From Escherichia phage PinkRuby, in sequence record PP925839.1: DNA of 64,000 bases. One strand, given 5' to 3'. Shown in pieces: positions 3,518-7,738 of the stretch. Numbering within the stretch: position 1 is the first letter of the stretch; every line of letters begins with the position of its first letter. The notes beneath the pieces were generated by a model. It saw only the letters and a program-made list of their open reading frames with translations. It was not told the origin of the DNA and searched no databases. A program made the position numbers and the translations under genes.

Positions 3518-4081
3518 TTATTTATCTAGTTTAGTTATTATAGCTTCTGCGGCAGCTTTTAGCTTAGATGCGGTGTTAATACGATTTTTAATTTCAGTAT
3601 ACGCATCGCCAAGAACATCAAGGCTATCAGAATAAACACTTACACTATTGCGTTCGCTATTTGAAATAGAACCTTTAGTTTTACGATCAAAATCGGTGTA
3701 CACGTCTTGAAGATCACGGGCTGCCTTCTTTGCATCATCCAATGCATCAAGAGCTTTATTCAAAGCATTAACGTATTTTTTAGTGTCGAACATATTCTTA
3801 GAAATTTTAACAGGTGCGCGTTCAGGAGTAGCTAACACAGATTTAGGAACCTGAGCGCCAGATGCCAATTTCTTAGAAATTTTGAAAAATGCTTTGTTGA
3901 ATTTATTTTCTTGACTCATTGTAAAAGAACTATTATCGATGTTGTACATTTCAATAGCTTTAGCTTTCCACTTAAGAAAATCGCCGCGGTCTTTTGGGTC
4001 CAAGTGGAAAAATACTTTAGTAAGATCTGCTTCAGATGGTAATTTTGCTGCTTCGGTTAAAAATTCGGCATAGGTTTTCAT
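3518..4081 (-). CDS. ipIII: capsid-targeted internal protein (IPIII-like)
   Basis: 187 aa; N-terminus MKTYAEFLTEA matches T4 internal-protein capsid targeting sequence cleaved by gp21 after Glu; size near T4 IPIII. Confidence 0.55.
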   Translation of the reverse strand: MKTYAEFLTEAAKLPSEADLTKVFFHLDPKDRGDFLKWKAKAIEMYNIDNSSFTMSQENKFNKAFFKISKKLASGAQVPKSVLATPERAPVKISKNMFDTKKYVNALNKALDALDDAKKAARDLQDVYTDFDRKTKGSISNSERNSVSVYSDSLDVLGDAYTEIKNRINTASKLKAAAEAIITKLDK

Positions 4082-4169
4082 TTAAAATCCTTGAAATAAT
4101 TTATCGGTTGGTTATTAATTATTTATTACTTTGTTATTATCCGTAACAGCATTCTCTATGTGATTCAAA

Positions 4170-4202
4170 CTAAAAAGCCCCAACCTTTCGGCTGGGGCTA
4201 AG
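4170..4202 (-). terminator. 33-bp repeat copy 1: hairpin terminator downstream of 4207..4680
   Basis: Minus-strand RNA AGCCCCAGCC-GAAA-GGUUGGGGCU then UUUUUAG; identical to 4725-4757. Confidence 0.65.
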
Positions 4203-4206
4203 AATG

Positions 4207-4680
4207 TTATTTGATTTGTTTAGCAGACCAAATGCGGTCTTTAATAATCTTTTGGATGTCTTCAACATACTCTAGGTCATGAGCATGTGGATTATCTTTG
4301 AAACTATGAGCTCGCGCAAGTTTCTGGCCTTCGGTCTTAATTATCAAAAGTTCTTTAAGAATTGCTTCATACCTAGAGATAATTCCTTTAGCAATATTTT
4401 TTTCTTGTGCTGCTTTAGGGTCAGCCTTAGGAGCAGGTTTACCTGAAGCCTTTGCAAAAGCAGCTCCAGTAGCAACTAAACTTTTCCAAGCCATACTAAC
4501 TGCATTCCCTGTAAATCCTTCGGCTTTCATATCACGAGCAAATTGGAATCGTGATTCATCGGAAGCATCTTTATAGGAATATTTACCCGCGGCAATGGCA
4601 GCTTTTGCGACAGCTTGAATTTCGGTGCTAGATGCTTCATTTAACACCGCTTCATTTAAAAATTGAGCATATGATTTCAT
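4207..4680 (-). CDS. capsid-targeted internal protein (IPII position, divergent)
   Basis: 157 aa; N-terminus MKSYAQFLNEA is CTS-like; TATAAATA late promoter on minus strand at 4717-4724; flanked by 33-bp direct repeats. Confidence 0.55.
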   Translation of the reverse strand: MKSYAQFLNEAVLNEASSTEIQAVAKAAIAAGKYSYKDASDESRFQFARDMKAEGFTGNAVSMAWKSLVATGAAFAKASGKPAPKADPKAAQEKNIAKGIISRYEAILKELLIIKTEGQKLARAHSFKDNPHAHDLEYVEDIQKIIKDRIWSAKQIK

Positions 4681-4716
4681 CTTATTTCCTGTTTTAATTC
4701 GTGGTTTTAATATACT

Positions 4717-4724
4717 TATTTATA
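4717..4724 (-). promoter_or_regulatory. late promoter TATAAATA driving the IPII-position gene
   Basis: Exact TATAAATA on minus strand about 35 nt upstream of ATG, with AGGAA ribosome-binding site. Confidence 0.55.
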
Positions 4725-4757
4725 CTAAAAAGCCCCAACCTTTCGGCTGGGGCTAAG
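4725..4757 (-). terminator. 33-bp repeat copy 2: identical hairpin terminator upstream of 4207..4680
   Basis: Perfect 33/33 match CTAAAAAGCCCCAACCTTTCGGCTGGGGCTAAG (plus-strand reading); followed on minus strand by TATAAATA (4717-4724). Confidence 0.65.
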
Positions 4758-4802
4758 CCTCGCGGCAACCTTGTCGGGGTTCCACCTGCTAAGGCAAGTG
4801 TT

Positions 4803-4898
4803 TGTACGAAACGCCGGGATTCGAACCCGGTTATTAAGCAGTTGACGCTACTCAATATTTTTAAAAGGCCATATCTCGACCATATCCGAACGTTCCGT
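4803..4898 (-). ncRNA. candidate tRNA-like small RNA (8-bp acceptor-like stem plus perfect T-arm)
   Basis: Minus strand has CCGGG-UUCGAAU-CCCGG; ACGGAACG (about 4898-4891) can pair with CGUUUCGU 3' of the T-arm; body non-canonical; lies in a 385-nt ORF-free gap. Confidence 0.3.
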
Positions 4899-5065
4899 CA
4901 AAAACGCTACTCGGCTTACGGCAAAGATATTTCCTCGAATCGATAATTCGGTGCGCCGTTTCTGCTGTGATGTAAGAGGGCATCAACAAATCATAAAGAT
5001 TTATTAACACAATTCCTTACTCAGGGAACATCAGTCCGACGACTTACCGGTAGCGATCCGGTTTC

Positions 5066-5416
5066 TTAATATTCTTTTAAAGCATCAATCTGTTCACGAC
5101 GTTTACGCCATAAATCAATTGCTTCATACGCAGATTCAGCATTTCGAATTGGACGGCATTTATATAAAGACTTGTGATTTTGATATTGTGTAGATAACGG
5201 AATTTTATCTAAAAGGTCTTTACGTTCAAAGTATTCGTAACCATCTAAGCCAAATGAACGATTTTTGAGAAATTGCCAATGACCAAATTCGTTTTGAATA
5301 TAAATATAATCCGCGTGTTGATAAAGTAAATTAATTTCACGAAATGAGATATGTTTTTCATATTCATTGAAGTAAAATGTTAAATCATGAACTACTAAAT
5401 AAACATTACCTTTCAT
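5066..5416 (-). CDS. hypothetical protein
   Basis: ORF track 116 aa, ATG start, immediately downstream of tRNA-Arg. Confidence 0.5.
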   Translation of the reverse strand: MKGNVYLVVHDLTFYFNEYEKHISFREINLLYQHADYIYIQNEFGHWQFLKNRSFGLDGYEYFERKDLLDKIPLSTQYQNHKSLYKCRPIRNAESAYEAIDLWRKRREQIDALKEY

Positions 5417-5434
5417 ATTTTCCTCACTTATAAT

Positions 5435-6289: not shown

Positions 6290-6294
6290 AAATT

Positions 6295-6381
6295 TGGTGC
6301 GAGAAGTGGGACTCGAACCCACAAGGAAATCATTCCGCAGCATTTTAAGTGCTGTGCCTTTACCAATTTGACCATTCTCGC
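6295..6381 (-). tRNA. tRNA-Leu (anticodon TAA), long variable arm
   Basis: Acceptor GCGAGAA/UUCUCGC, anticodon loop CUUAAAA, long variable arm, T-loop UUCGAGU, encoded CCA. Confidence 0.85.
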
Positions 6382-6382
6382 G

Positions 6383-6455
6383 CTGGGAATAAAGGACTCG
6401 AACCTTTGCATCCTGGAATCAAAATCCAGTGCCTTACCAACTTGGCTAATTCCCA
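6383..6455 (-). tRNA. tRNA-Gln (anticodon TTG), CCA not encoded
   Basis: Acceptor UGGGAAU/AUUCCCA, anticodon stem CUGGA/UCCAG, loop UUUUGAU, T-loop UUCGAGU; directly adjacent to tRNA-Leu. Confidence 0.85.
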
Positions 6456-6552
6456 ATTATTAACAAAGGCTCTCAAGCAAGAACCCTTGATGATAGAGGG
6501 TATTAATCAGTGCGATATGAGTTAATAATAACAAATAATTCTTAAAGCATAT

Positions 6553-6840
6553 TTACCATTTATGATAATACATATTTACGATGCATTCAAGACCCAAAGA
6601 ATTCTTGAAAATATCATATTCAAGAGGACCTTTTTCTGTTTCAATAAAGAAATCAAAATTTACTGTATTAAATTTACGGTCTTCCTTCACTAATTTAACT
6701 TGAGAAGATGAACGGTCAATGTAAACCTTTTCAACTTCAAAACATGTTAAAATGCCATAATCATCAATCAAGGCTTTAGCCGCGTCTTGATCATATTTAT
6801 ATCCATTTTCAATGGATGATACTTTCGCATAAAGAATCAT
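6553..6840 (-). CDS. hypothetical protein
   Basis: ORF track 95 aa; ATG overlaps upstream stop (TGATAATGA). Confidence 0.55.
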   Translation of the reverse strand: MILYAKVSSIENGYKYDQDAAKALIDDYGILTCFEVEKVYIDRSSSQVKLVKEDRKFNTVNFDFFIETEKGPLEYDIFKNSLGLECIVNMYYHKW

Positions 6841-6842
6841 TA

Positions 6843-7223
6843 TCAGCCTTCATCAACAATAGTATGAGTATGGGCATTTACAATTTGCCACCAATCAAAG
6901 CGATTAGAACCATAATCTGGTTTGTTTTCATTTTCTTTGATAATGTCACGGAGTTCATCTTCAGTGGCGGCTTTCGCGATTAAATCAGCATATCCACCAC
7001 GAGGATAATAATTATCACCTGCAAAAAGTAAAAAGTTTGGTTTAATGTTATTGAACTCTTCAAGAGTAATAACCTTTCCTGACGGTTGAACAATCTCTAC
7101 ATATTTATATCCCAATTTTTGAGCAGCATCTACTGCTTCAAGCAAAGTATCATGAGCCCATCCAATTTGACAACCTGGCTTTTCAGATGGATTAGCCTGA
7201 TAATCCGCATACACTTTGTACAT
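6843..7223 (-). CDS. hypothetical protein (start moved to ATG at 7223)
   Basis: Track ORF 6843..7262 overlaps upstream gene; ATG (MYKVYADYQ...) sits 1 nt after upstream stop TAG. Confidence 0.55.
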   Translation of the reverse strand: MYKVYADYQANPSEKPGCQIGWAHDTLLEAVDAAQKLGYKYVEIVQPSGKVITLEEFNNIKPNFLLFAGDNYYPRGGYADLIAKAATEDELRDIIKENENKPDYGSNRFDWWQIVNAHTHTIVDEG

Positions 7224-7224
7224 T

Positions 7225-7410
7225 CTATTCACCTTTAGAAATTTTATCCATAACGATAGCAATTAAACCAATTAAAAATGCTACTACAAGTGAAAAAACG
7301 TTTTCTGCTGTAGTCAATAATCCGCATATAAATCCAACAAACATTGAAAAACTAAAAGCAGAAGCAGAAATTGCAATAGCAACATTTCGAATTAATTCAC
7401 AACGTTTCAT
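7225..7410 (-). CDS. hypothetical small membrane protein
   Basis: 61 aa, two hydrophobic helices; early promoter-like element and AGGAG upstream. Confidence 0.5.
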   Translation of the reverse strand: MKRCELIRNVAIAISASAFSFSMFVGFICGLLTTAENVFSLVVAFLIGLIAIVMDKISKGE

Positions 7411-7438
7411 TTTATTCTCCTCAGTAGTTGATAGGGTA

Positions 7439-7492
7439 ATAGTATCACAACTAAAACCCTATGTAAACAACTTTGTGAAATTATTTTAAATC
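7439..7492 (-). promoter_or_regulatory. early promoter-like stop/start junction containing a 33-bp repeat copy
   Basis: ipI-position gene ends ...EDLK-TAA inside the repeat; GTTTAC-N18-TACTAT; arms ATAGGGT/ACCCTAT; AGGAG before ATG of 7225..7410. Confidence 0.55.
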
Positions 7493-7738
7493 TTCTAATC
7501 GTTTCTTCATCTTAGAACCATTTTTAGCAATTTCTCCTGCATCGGAGCATAACGCTAAAAGTGCTTTAACTTTAGTTTGGTCTCCTTTAAAAGACGAAGG
7601 ATCGACCGCAGCAGCAAGTTCTTTAATACGAGAGAAAAGACGCTCAGCTTCAGCTAAAGCCATTCCAAGCTTTACTTCCATACCGTGAGAAGATTCAGTG
7701 ATAGCAGTTTTTGTAGCAAACTCTTTGAAAGTTTTCAT
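7481..7738 (-). CDS. ipI: capsid-targeted internal protein (IPI position)
   Basis: 85 aa; N-terminus MKTFKEFATK... is CTS-like; lies immediately upstream of 57B as ipI does in T4. Confidence 0.5.
   Translation of the reverse strand: MKTFKEFATKTAITESSHGMEVKLGMALAEAERLFSRIKELAAAVDPSSFKGDQTKVKALLALCSDAGEIAKNGSKMKKRLEDLK

What the first reader, a model, noticed from the sequence alone, without database searches (positions are those of the whole stretch)
3518..7738. Three CTS-bearing internal proteins, none an obvious full match to T4 IPI/IPII/IPIII
Genes 3518..4081, 4207..4680 and 7481..7738 all begin MK(T/S)(Y/F)x(E)F, the capsid targeting sequence that directs packaging and gp21 cleavage. Their sizes are 187, 157 and 85 aa. 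Both alt-like proteins also start with a related MELITELFD leader. Unlike the T4 order I recall (denV, ipII, ipIII, e, nudE, tRNAs), the two larger IP genes here lie between the tRNA array and the Nudix-like gene, and no lysozyme e gene is in the window. The IP loci are known to be hypervariable, so these are prime candidates for strain-specific counter-defence functions.
Basis: partly seen in the sequence, partly recalled or inferred. Interest (0 to 1): 0.55.

Follow-up and report, generated by a model that had tools for sequence, protein, structure and literature searches.

The report
Three capsid-targeted internal proteins, T4-like phage
A T4-like phage encodes three small basic proteins carrying the N-terminal tag that loads proteins into the phage head for injection with the DNA: one is the long-known Ip5 of T2/T6, and the other two belong to a widespread, never-annotated family at a site that T4 leaves empty, which makes them untested candidates for inhibitors of host defences.

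Summary
Exactly three ORFs in the window start MK[TS][YF]x[EQ]F (0.02 expected by chance), and each has an L/I-x-E prohead-protease site at residue 10 or 15. All three are basic (pI about 9.35). They resemble T4 IPI/IPII/IPIII only in this leader.

- **The 85-aa protein** is the classical Ip5 of T2/T6 (97.6-98.8% identical), sitting in the ipI slot.
- **The 187- and 157-aa proteins** are called "hypothetical" in every source read. They occupy a third site, between the terminator downstream of rnaC and e.8, which is empty in T4.
- **Occupancy of that site** varies among relatives: no cassette, either one alone, or both.
- **Cassette layout** is terminator, late promoter, leader-bearing ORF, terminator. 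The same layout occurs in at least four other Tevenvirinae genera.
- **Family relationship:** the two proteins are mosaic paralogues (leader, small helical domain, linker, helical hairpin), linked by an Enterobacter-phage intermediate.

They are not strain-specific; they occur in 164 to about 510 phage records. The "missing" lysozyme gene is a window-edge effect.

Packaging, cleavage and injection are inferred with good support. An anti-restriction role is only an analogy to T4 Ip1-3. I rate this a new member of a known kind, of moderate interest.

The parts
3518..4081 (-). w187: a 187-aa protein with a capsid targeting sequence (CTS). The CTS is codons 1-10 (4052-4081), with predicted gp21 cleavage after L8-T9-E10. 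Architecture: small helical N-domain, linker (about residues 74-99), long helical hairpin.
   Evidence: motif; pI 9.35. (AF2, pLDDT 58, all-helical). (164 phage records, all 'hypothetical'; identical to ime09 YP_007004514 and KRT47 gp134). (distant homologues keep the CTS).
4120..4127 (-). AATAAATA, a 7/8 match to the T4 late promoter TATAAATA, about 38 nt upstream of the w187 ATG. A putative late promoter.
   Evidence: Sequence. The Mosigvirus orthologue of w157 has AATAAATA at the equivalent place. Function is inferred.
3483..3509 (-). Intrinsic terminator that closes the w187 cassette (CCCTATCTAAATGATAGGG followed by a T-run).
   Evidence: The cassette boundary was seen by alignment to T4 and RB51 and to G3F10 and CT01.
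4207..4680 (-). w157: a 157-aa CTS-bearing protein with two tandem L-N-E sites (residues 8-10 and 13-15). Architecture: 3-helix N-domain (18-71), Lys/Pro/Ala linker (72-87), helical hairpin (88-154).
   Evidence: (AF2, pLDDT 77). (511 phage records; CTS and E15 invariant across genera). (RB32ORF133c family, 'hypothetical').
4717..4724 (-). Canonical T4 late promoter TATAAATA, 36 nt upstream of the w157 ATG and immediately after the terminator T-run.
   Evidence: The same terminator-then-TATAAATA junction precedes the homologues in KP1 and JS98, and a terminator followed a few bases later by TATAAATA precedes the fHe-Yen9-01 homologue.
4718..4757 (-). Upstream copy of a 40-nt direct repeat. It is the terminator of the tRNA/rnaC transcription unit (stem 4731-4754).
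   Evidence: (family D4, 95% identity), (T4 has a single copy).
4163..4202 (-). Downstream copy of the 40-nt terminator repeat (stem 4176-4199). It closes the w157 cassette, and the w187 cassette starts right after its T-run.
   Evidence: The RB51 annotation notes 'flanked by 34 bp imperfect direct repeat'.
4800..5065 (-). rnaD/rnaC-like small stable RNA genes (approximate bounds) that precede the cassette site.
   Evidence: Near-identical to the annotated T4 rnaC/rnaD in alignment A3. No Rfam family matches.
7481..7738 (-). w85 = Ip5, an 85-aa internal protein in the ipI slot. The leader is MKTFKEF..., with cleavage predicted after I13-T14-E15.
   Evidence: (phrog_3499, internal head protein, E 3e-49).
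7758..7826 (-). Early promoter plus stem-loop element (PeSL-like) upstream of Ip5, overlapping the last codons of 57B. It is the 5' boundary of the exchangeable ipI-locus cassette.
   Evidence: family D2, 84% to the downstream copy; TTTACA-17-TACTAT; nearly identical to the T4 ipI upstream region. PeSL concept: PMC4122927.
7428..7496 (-). Second copy of the PeSL-like element, downstream of Ip5 and upstream of trna.4, overlapping the last codons of Ip5. It is the 3' boundary of the cassette.
36730..37368 (+). gp21 prohead protease (Peptidase_S77), the enzyme expected to remove the CTS.
   Evidence: E 1.5e-111.
37399..38208 (+). gp22 scaffolding core protein, the structure that a CTS is thought to bind.
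   Evidence: T4_CASP, E 5e-90. Literature.
55349..57406 (-). Alt-like ADP-ribosyltransferase paralogue starting MELITELFD (I-T-E site at residues 4-6).
57410..59503 (-). Alt ADP-ribosyltransferase starting MELITELFD. The longest ORF begins one Met further upstream, at 59506.

Best explanation
All three genes encode internal (head-packaged, injected) proteins of a T4-like phage.

**Proposed mechanism**
1. The genes are expressed while proheads are being built. w157 uses its own canonical late promoter and w187 a 7/8 variant. Ip5 uses the same promoter context as T4 ipI.
2. The 10-15-residue N-terminal capsid targeting sequence docks the protein on the gp22 scaffolding core.
3. The gp21 prohead protease cuts after L/I-x-E. 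The predicted mature N-termini are A11 for w187, A11 and/or A16 for w157, and S16 for Ip5.
4. The basic mature proteins stay with the packaged DNA and enter the cell with it.
5. There they most likely neutralise an early-acting host defence, as T4 Ip1, Ip2 and Ip3 each neutralise one GmrSD-type enzyme that cuts modified DNA.

**What each gene is**
- w85 is simply Ip5.
- w187 and w157 are mosaic paralogues of an unannotated, Tevenvirinae-wide family: CTS, small helical N-domain, flexible linker, helical-hairpin C-domain.
- These genes are carried as self-contained cassettes (promoter, ORF, terminator) inserted at the terminator downstream of the tRNA/rnaC unit. The cassettes are gained and lost independently.

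**Basis:** steps 1-4 are inferred from sequence and from T4 experiments. Step 5 is analogy only.
For: **Motif and processing machinery**
- The motif occurs three times against 0.02 expected, always at an ORF start.
- The experimentally critical residues (aromatic 4, F7, L/I8, E10 or a later I-x-E) are present.
- The gp21 protease and gp22 scaffold are encoded in the window.
- All three proteins are basic, pI 9.34-9.40, like T4 IPs at 8.9-9.5.

**The leader is under selection**
- Homologues at only 25-31% identity, from other genera, keep the leader and a second I/L/V-x-E site. These are P0071, P0073-80, JS98 orf135 and fHe-Yen9-01 gp153/gp154.
- w187 and P0071 share 7 of the first 10 residues against 31% identity overall.

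**Late expression**
- TATAAATA lies 36 nt before w157, immediately after a terminator.
- The same terminator-then-TATAAATA layout precedes the homologues in Jiaodavirus KP1 and Dhakavirus JS98, and Tegunavirus has TATAAATA a few bases after its terminator.

**Dispensable cassettes**
- The site is empty in T4, T2 and RB9.
- It holds w157 only in RB51 and others, w187 only in G3F10 and CT01, and both here and in ime09 and KRT47.
- Truncated or frameshifted alleles exist.

**Ip5 identity:**

**Mosaic paralogy**
- P0075 matches the w187 N-domain (E 9e-5; profile E 8e-25) and the w157 C-domain (E 2e-8).
- hhalign of the two C-domain alignments gives 91.8% probability.

**Functional precedent:** Ip1, Ip2 and Ip3 each inhibit a distinct GmrSD (PMC12373910).
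Against: - No direct evidence of packaging, cleavage or injection was found for w187 or w157. No virion-proteomics paper naming them turned up.
- w187 has only a 7/8 late-promoter match.
- The structure models are moderate (w157, pLDDT 77) or poor (w187, pLDDT 58).
- Fold searches return only generic helical hairpins, and Pfam and NCBIfam return nothing. No molecular activity can therefore be read from the sequence.
- In Silas et al. 2025, ip4-10 (which by its numbering should include Ip5; the paper's gene list was not seen) showed no reproducible inhibition of any tested GmrSD. The anti-GmrSD role is not general.
- T4 IPIII mutants also affect head assembly, so a structural role is possible.
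Confidence: 0.72

Rival explanations
1. The proteins are packaged through the capsid targeting sequence, but their job is structural. They would assist head assembly or neutralise and organise the packaged DNA, rather than inhibit a host defence.
For: - They are basic (pI about 9.35).
- The linkers are rich in Lys, Pro and Ala, very long in relatives (P0073-76, JS98 orf135), and resemble DNA-binding tails.
- T4 IPIII mutants assemble heads more slowly and give smaller bursts.
- ip4-10 had no GmrSD target in Silas 2025.
Against: - The site is empty in T4, T2 and RB9, which build normal heads.
- The cassettes come and go independently, and truncated alleles occur.
- A natural w187 allele in CT01 lacks 25 linker residues.
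- The pattern of swapped N- and C-domains resembles an arms-race effector more than a structural component.
Confidence: 0.15
2. The CTS-like N-terminus is a recombination scar: a conserved 5' gene segment reused when cassettes are swapped. w187 and w157 would then act inside the infected cell late in infection and would not be packaged.
For: - The CTS-coding DNA plus Shine-Dalgarno region of w187 and w157 is a 42-nt direct repeat at 76% identity (family D5).
- Cassette boundaries coincide with repeated regulatory sequences.
- There is no proteomic evidence of packaging.
Against: - The leader is conserved at the protein level in homologues with 25-31% identity, from five other genera, whose DNA is no longer alignable.
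- The exact residues needed for targeting and cleavage are preserved, and usually a second cleavage site as well.
- In T4, the first 10 residues alone suffice to package foreign proteins. A protein made late with this leader would be packaged regardless of its origin.
Confidence: 0.08
3. w187 and/or w157 are not functional genes. They would be chance ORFs or decaying remnants.
For: - Some phages carry frameshifted or truncated copies, for example OE5505, FJ1, F26 and P0017-20.
- The w187 type is nearly invariant, at least 95% identical in 163 of 164 records. That gives little evolutionary signal.
Against: - Full-length ORFs with a Shine-Dalgarno site, promoter and terminator are present in hundreds of genomes.
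- Family members diverged to 25-35% identity keep their length and architecture.
- Both proteins match PHROG 2280 end to end.
Confidence: 0.03

Closest known systems
Ip5 of phages T6/T2/RB15/RB70 (ipI-locus internal proteins; Repoila et al. 1994, cited from the RB51 record and reviews)
   Same: w85 is 98.8% identical to the T6 protein and 97.6% to the T2 protein. It occupies the same slot between 57B and trna.4, flanked by the same promoter and stem-loop repeats.
   Different: Only a few substitutions in the leader: MKTFKEFATKTAITE here against MKTYKEFATETIITE in RB51. No target is known for Ip5.
T4 IPI, IPII and IPIII (Ip1-3), injected inhibitors of GmrSD-family type IV restriction enzymes
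   Same: An N-terminal capsid targeting sequence with a gp21 site, small size, basic pI, dispensability, and cassette-like variable loci.
   Different: The mature parts show no sequence similarity. w157 and w187 are predicted to be all-helical two-domain proteins, whereas IPI* is described as a compact alpha/beta fold. They sit at a third locus that is empty in T4. No target is known.
PHROG 2280 (unknown function)
   Same: Both w187 (E 1e-53) and w157 (E 2e-59) match it end to end.
   Different: The PHROG carries no function or category. This work adds the capsid targeting sequence, the conserved locus and the mosaic domain structure.
PeSL promoter/stem-loop-mediated modular shuffling in T4-like phages (Arbiol 2010; Comeau 2014)
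   Same: Ip5 is flanked by a repeated early promoter plus stem-loop. w157 is flanked by a repeated 40-nt terminator. Indels map exactly to these repeats.
   Different: At the post-tRNA site the repeated element is a terminator followed by a late promoter, not an early-promoter stem-loop.
Alt (T4 ADP-ribosyltransferase), another packaged and injected protein
   Same: It is packaged, cut by gp21 at an I-T-E site near the N-terminus, and injected.
   Different: Its leader is different (MELITE), it is a large enzyme with a recognisable ART domain, and it is present here as two tandem paralogues.

Membership tests
T4-type internal proteins (CTS-bearing, head-packaged) | N-terminal capsid targeting sequence with an aromatic residue at position 4 and Phe at position 7 (the targeting determinants in IPIII) | tested here: met
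   Y4/F7 in w187 and w157, and F4/F7 in w85. Determinants are taken from PMC9026906.
T4-type internal proteins (CTS-bearing, head-packaged) | A gp21 cleavage motif L/I-x-E at the end of a 10-19-residue propeptide | tested here: met
   LTE(8-10) in w187. LNE(8-10) and LNE(13-15) in w157. ITE(13-15) in w85.
T4-type internal proteins (CTS-bearing, head-packaged) | The phage encodes the gp21 prohead protease and the gp22 scaffolding core | tested here: met
   Peptidase_S77 at E 1.5e-111 and T4_CASP at E 5e-90.
T4-type internal proteins (CTS-bearing, head-packaged) | Small, basic, non-essential, and variable in presence among close relatives | tested here: met
   pI 9.34-9.40. Four occupancy states of the post-tRNA site and truncated alleles.
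T4-type internal proteins (CTS-bearing, head-packaged) | Synthesis during prohead assembly (late transcription) | tested here: inconclusive
   w157 has TATAAATA. w187 has AATAAATA (7/8). w85 shares the T4 ipI upstream region, which has an early-type promoter and no TATAAATA within 110 nt. No expression data are available.
T4-type internal proteins (CTS-bearing, head-packaged) | Physical presence of the processed protein in virions and injection into the host | not testable with these tools
   This needs virion mass spectrometry or N-terminal sequencing. No paper reporting it was found.
Ip5 (T2/T6 type) | Full-length sequence identity to T6/T2 Ip5 and location between 57B and trna.4 | tested here: met
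   98.8% to T6 and 97.6% to T2. UniRef cluster name Ip5, Q38630_BPT6. Synteny. This applies to w85 only.
T4 IPI / IPII / IPIII orthologues | Sequence similarity of the mature (post-cleavage) protein | tested here: not met
   BLASTP alignments are confined to the leader, and no mature-region hit has E below 0.1.
GmrSD (type IV restriction) inhibitors | Demonstrated inhibition of, or binding to, a GmrSD-family enzyme | not testable with these tools
   The only evidence is analogy to Ip1-3. ip4-10 gave no reproducible interaction in PMC12373910.
Post-tRNA CTS protein family (PHROG 2280; defined here) | CTS, small helical N-domain, flexible linker and helical-hairpin C-domain, encoded just downstream of the tRNA/rnaC terminator behind a late promoter | tested here: met
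   Applies to w187 and w157.

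The most novel reading that the evidence does not exclude
The site between the tRNA/rnaC terminator and e.8 is a third internal-protein locus that spans the Tevenvirinae. It has gone unnoticed because T4, T2 and RB9 leave it empty. Under this reading it encodes a modular family of injected effectors: a leader, interchangeable N-domains, a flexible linker and interchangeable helical C-domains. Domain swapping would retarget these effectors to different host defences, possibly including the GmrSD variants for which no Ip inhibitor is known, or defences outside type IV restriction altogether.
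Probability: 0.3. Interest if true: 0.6.

Novelty: new member of a known kind. Interest (0 to 1): 0.4.

Why it matters
Injected internal proteins are the first phage products to meet host immunity. In 2025 all three T4 Ips were shown to be specific inhibitors of different GmrSD restriction enzymes, and five other anti-T-even GmrSD systems were left without a known inhibitor.

Two further leader-bearing proteins are present in hundreds of therapeutic-type T4-like phages, and every database read here labels them "hypothetical". They are concrete, cheap-to-test candidates for those orphan targets, or for other host-range determinants. Their cassette and domain-swap structure also illustrates how such effectors diversify.

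The class itself is well known and one of the three genes is the classical Ip5, so the advance is incremental.

Tried and rejected
- **Family libraries.** Pfam, NCBIfam and PDB sequence searches gave nothing above threshold for any of the three proteins.
- **Direct comparison of w187 and w157.** BLASTP and a first hhalign of the mature parts found no homology. I initially concluded that PHROG 2280 lumped them through the leader alone. I revised this after the profile search recovered intermediates.
- **A suspected link.** A visual resemblance between the w187 C-terminus and that of Klebsiella protein P0022 was not significant.
- **Literature.** Searches for locus tags, leader peptide strings and virion proteomes naming these proteins found nothing. 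One search on Ip4/Ip5/Ip7 was swamped by inositol-phosphate papers. Repoila 1994 is not held.
- **Rfam.** It has no model for rnaC or rnaD.
- **An existing annotation.** The KRT47 note calling w187 a "GpT holin family protein, predicted by COILS" has no support here.

Full report
**What the window is.** The window comes from a T4-like phage of the genus Tequatrovirus. Positions 3000-8300 are 98.3% identical to Shigella phage KRT47 (species Tequatrovirus ime09), and 162 phage records cover at least 80% of that stretch. On the minus strand the gene order is as follows:
- nudE (first 37 codons only, at the left edge), then e.2 to e.8
- w187 (3518-4081) and w157 (4207-4680)
- rnaC/rnaD-like RNAs, an RB69ORF150c-like gene and 11 tRNAs
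- trna.2 to trna.4, then w85 (7481-7738)
- 57B, 57A and gene 1

This is the T4 backbone order. The lysozyme gene e is absent only because the window starts inside nudE. In relatives, e sits immediately beyond it.

**Checking the observation.** The three ORFs exist with the stated sizes and N-termini. A six-frame scan for MK[TS][YF].[EQ]F finds exactly these three, all at ORF starts, against 0.02 expected from shuffles.

Experiments on T4 IPIII showed that its first 10 residues suffice for packaging. Residues 4 and 7 govern targeting and residues 8 and 10 govern processing, and the prohead protease gp21 cuts after L/I-x-E (review PMC9026906). w187 (MKTYAEFLTE|A) and w157 (MKSYAQFLNE|AVLNE|A) fit this exactly. 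w85 (MKTFKEFATKTAITE|S) resembles T4 IPI (MKTFKEF...ITE|A), with the cut further in.

All three proteins are basic, with pI 9.34-9.40, like the T4 IPs. The window also encodes the gp21 protease and the gp22 scaffold. Both Alt-like ADP-ribosyltransferases start MELITELFD. BLASTP against T4 IPI, IPII and IPIII aligns only the leaders.

**w85 is Ip5.** The RB51 record names its orthologue "Ip5, similar to Ip5 from T6, T2, RB15 and RB70". The UniRef cluster is "Ip5", Q38630_BPT6. tblastn gives 98.8% identity to T6 and 97.6% to T2, and the protein matches PHROG 3499, "internal head protein".

It occupies the T4 ipI slot. The upstream early promoter and stem-loop, the ribosome-binding site and the first codons are nearly identical to those of T4 ipI. 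A 69-nt copy of that element recurs just downstream (7428-7496 against 7758-7826, 84% identity). This is the promoter/stem-loop-bounded cassette exchange already described for T4-like phages (PMC4122927). This part of the finding is already known.

**w187 and w157 occupy a site that T4 leaves empty.** Alignment of the window with T4 and RB51 shows that T4 has one terminator hairpin downstream of rnaC, followed directly by the e.8 promoter region.
- RB51 has a 555-bp insertion carrying w157, flanked by two copies of that terminator. The RB51 annotators noted a "34 bp imperfect direct repeat".
- The window has the same w157 unit, with the 40-nt repeats at 4718-4757 and 4163-4202 (95% identical). 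A second unit carrying w187 starts right after the terminator T-run and ends with its own terminator.

A sample of 60 of the 768 matching records shows all four states:
- Empty: T4, T2, RB9.
- w157 only: many phages.
- w187 only: G3F10 and CT01.
- Both: the window, ime09 and KRT47.

The cassettes are therefore independent and dispensable. Frameshifted or truncated alleles occur. In CT01, w187 lacks 25 linker residues through a deletion between two short direct repeats.

**Expression signals.** A canonical late promoter TATAAATA lies 36 nt before the w157 start, immediately after the terminator. w187 has AATAAATA at a similar distance. The Mosigvirus orthologue of w157 has the same 7/8 variant at the equivalent place.

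**A wide, unannotated family.** w187 itself is nearly invariant: 164 phage records, 163 of them at 95% identity or more. It is almost an orphan among 1.84 billion representative proteins.
- One hit, P0071, is a full-length homologue at 31% identity (pairwise E 5e-13). It keeps the leader, MITFNEFLNE...MINE.
- A profile built from these sequences recovers further members from Enterobacter phages and metagenome assemblies. tblastn with one of them, P0075, finds 189 phage records spanning Karamvirus-type Enterobacter phages, Dhakavirus JS98, Mosigvirus HX01, Klebsiella phages and Tegunavirus fHe-Yen9-01.
- w157 is in 511 phage records, including Mosigvirus at 73% identity. Jiaodavirus and Tegunavirus members share only its N-domain.
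- Every member read has an aromatic residue at position 4 (or 3), F or I at 7, L or I at 8, E at 10, and usually a second I/L/V-x-E site a few residues on. This holds even though overall identity falls to 25-30%.
- Every source calls these proteins hypothetical.

The locus is conserved in four other genera. In KP1 (Jiaodavirus), JS98 (Dhakavirus) and APCEc01 (Mosigvirus) the gene lies just after the tRNA cluster or rnaC terminator. In KP1 and JS98 the terminator-then-TATAAATA junction is the same as here. fHe-Yen9-01 (Tegunavirus) carries two such genes in tandem, the first behind a terminator followed a few bases later by TATAAATA.

**Architecture and paralogy.** AlphaFold models show the following:
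- w157 (pLDDT 77): a three-helix N-domain (18-71), a low-confidence Lys/Pro/Ala linker (72-87) and a helical hairpin (88-154).
- w187 (pLDDT 58): the same layout, at low confidence.

The mature parts of w187 and w157 are not detectably similar when compared directly. However, Enterobacter-phage protein P0075 has the w187-type N-domain (E 9e-5; profile E 8e-25) and the w157-type C-domain (E 2e-8). A profile-profile comparison of the two C-domain sets gives 91.8% probability. One caveat applies: the w157-type profile in that comparison includes P0075 and P0076.

At least two N-domain types and three or four C-domain types occur in different combinations. The two genes are therefore mosaic paralogues of one family. 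This explains why both match PHROG 2280 end to end.

**Function.** No enzymatic or binding activity can be read from sequence or fold. Pfam, NCBIfam and PDB give nothing, and the fold searches return only generic helical hairpins.

The best-supported mechanism is the generic internal-protein pathway: late synthesis, leader-mediated docking on the scaffold core, gp21 cleavage, retention with the DNA, and co-injection. The further inference is analogy to T4 Ip1, Ip2 and Ip3, each of which inhibits one GmrSD-family enzyme with no cross-protection (Silas et al. 2025, PMC12373910). It proposes that the mature proteins disarm an early host defence.

That study found five more GmrSD systems active against T-even phages with no inhibitor among the ten ip genes it tested. 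By its ip4-10 numbering Ip5 should have been among those tested, but the paper's gene list was not seen. Whether w157 and w187, which carry no Ip name, were included is also unknown. A structural or DNA-organising role remains possible, given the basic linkers and the IPIII precedent. The presence/absence polymorphism and domain swapping argue against an essential structural function.

**Repertoire of the lineage.** In the nearest relative, KRT47, the interval between vs.8 and e holds Ip4 and a further 105-aa leader-bearing protein. The lineage probably injects five small internal proteins plus two Alt paralogues. That interval lies outside the window.

**Verdict.** These are leader-bearing proteins that are not T4 IPI/II/III orthologues. 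They are not strain-specific, however, and one of them is the classical Ip5.

The modestly new element is that w187 and w157 belong to a widespread, uniformly unannotated, modular family at a third internal-protein locus that T4 lacks. I found no publication describing this, but my literature access is incomplete: Repoila 1994 and most subscription papers are not held.

- Novelty: new member of a known kind.
- Interest: about 0.4.

Noticed in passing
window 7811-8266 (-): Gene 57B, next to Ip5, matches Pfam Acb1 (anti-CBASS nuclease) at E 2.6e-60. A known counter-defence gene therefore sits directly beside the ipI-type cassette.
   Followed up: partly
window 55349-57406 and 57410-59506 (-): Two tandem Alt-like ADP-ribosyltransferase paralogues, both with the MELITELFD leader and an ART domain. 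Their central regions differ. The longest ORF of the second has an extra upstream Met.
   Followed up: partly
window 5435-6455 (-): The tRNA array has 11 genes (Arg, His, Asn, Tyr, Met, Thr, Ser, Pro, Gly, Leu, Gln) against 8 in T4, and has no segB homing endonuclease inside it. A 114-nt gap separates tRNA-His and tRNA-Asn (5591-5704).
   Followed up: no
window 5066-5416 (-): A 116-aa gene (RB69ORF150c-like, PHROG 3355) lies between the tRNA array and rnaD. T4 has no counterpart there. It lacks a capsid targeting sequence.
   Followed up: no
window 3311-3379, 7428-7496, 7758-7826: Three copies of an early promoter plus stem-loop element (TTTCACAAA-GTTTACAT...TACTAT), upstream of e.8, trna.4 and Ip5. 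They match the PeSL shuffling elements described by the Krisch laboratory.
   Followed up: partly
window 3795-3817 and 3870-3892 (inside w187): A short direct repeat (TTCTTAGAAATTTT, encoding KISK) marks the ends of the 25-residue linker deletion seen in the Shigella phage CT01 allele.
   Followed up: yes
window 3014-3331 and 6843-7262 (-): The longest ORFs for e.8 (105 aa) and trna.3 (139 aa, TTG start, overlapping trna.4) are probably over-extended. The PHROG matches begin at residues 19 and 14, which agrees with the shorter annotated genes in relatives.
   Followed up: no
protein P0025 (Logan assembly, 94 aa): A chimeric ORF joins a trna.3-like N-terminus to the last about 30 residues of w157, at a short KEN/KDN microhomology. 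It is either an assembly artefact or a natural deletion fusing the two genes.
   Followed up: no
L006 (KRT47) 2759-3566; outside the window: The closest relative has Ip4 and a 105-aa CTS protein (MKTYKEFIAE...) between vs.8 and e, and no denV is annotated in that interval. The record labels them IpII and IpIII, which appears to be wrong: gp122 is 99% identical to RB51 Ip4, and gp123 (105 aa against 193 aa for T4 IPIII) was not compared directly with T4 IPIII.
   Followed up: partly
L012 (JS98) 1877-2431: In JS98 a non-CTS predicted membrane protein (orf136) occupies its own terminator-plus-TATAAATA cassette, next to the CTS gene. The post-tRNA site therefore accepts other cargo too.
   Followed up: no
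L011 2092-2526: The distant w187 homologue P0071 lies next to a gene with ART-PolyVal and DUF3990 domains on a short T4-like metagenomic contig. That is another conflict-associated neighbour.
   Followed up: no
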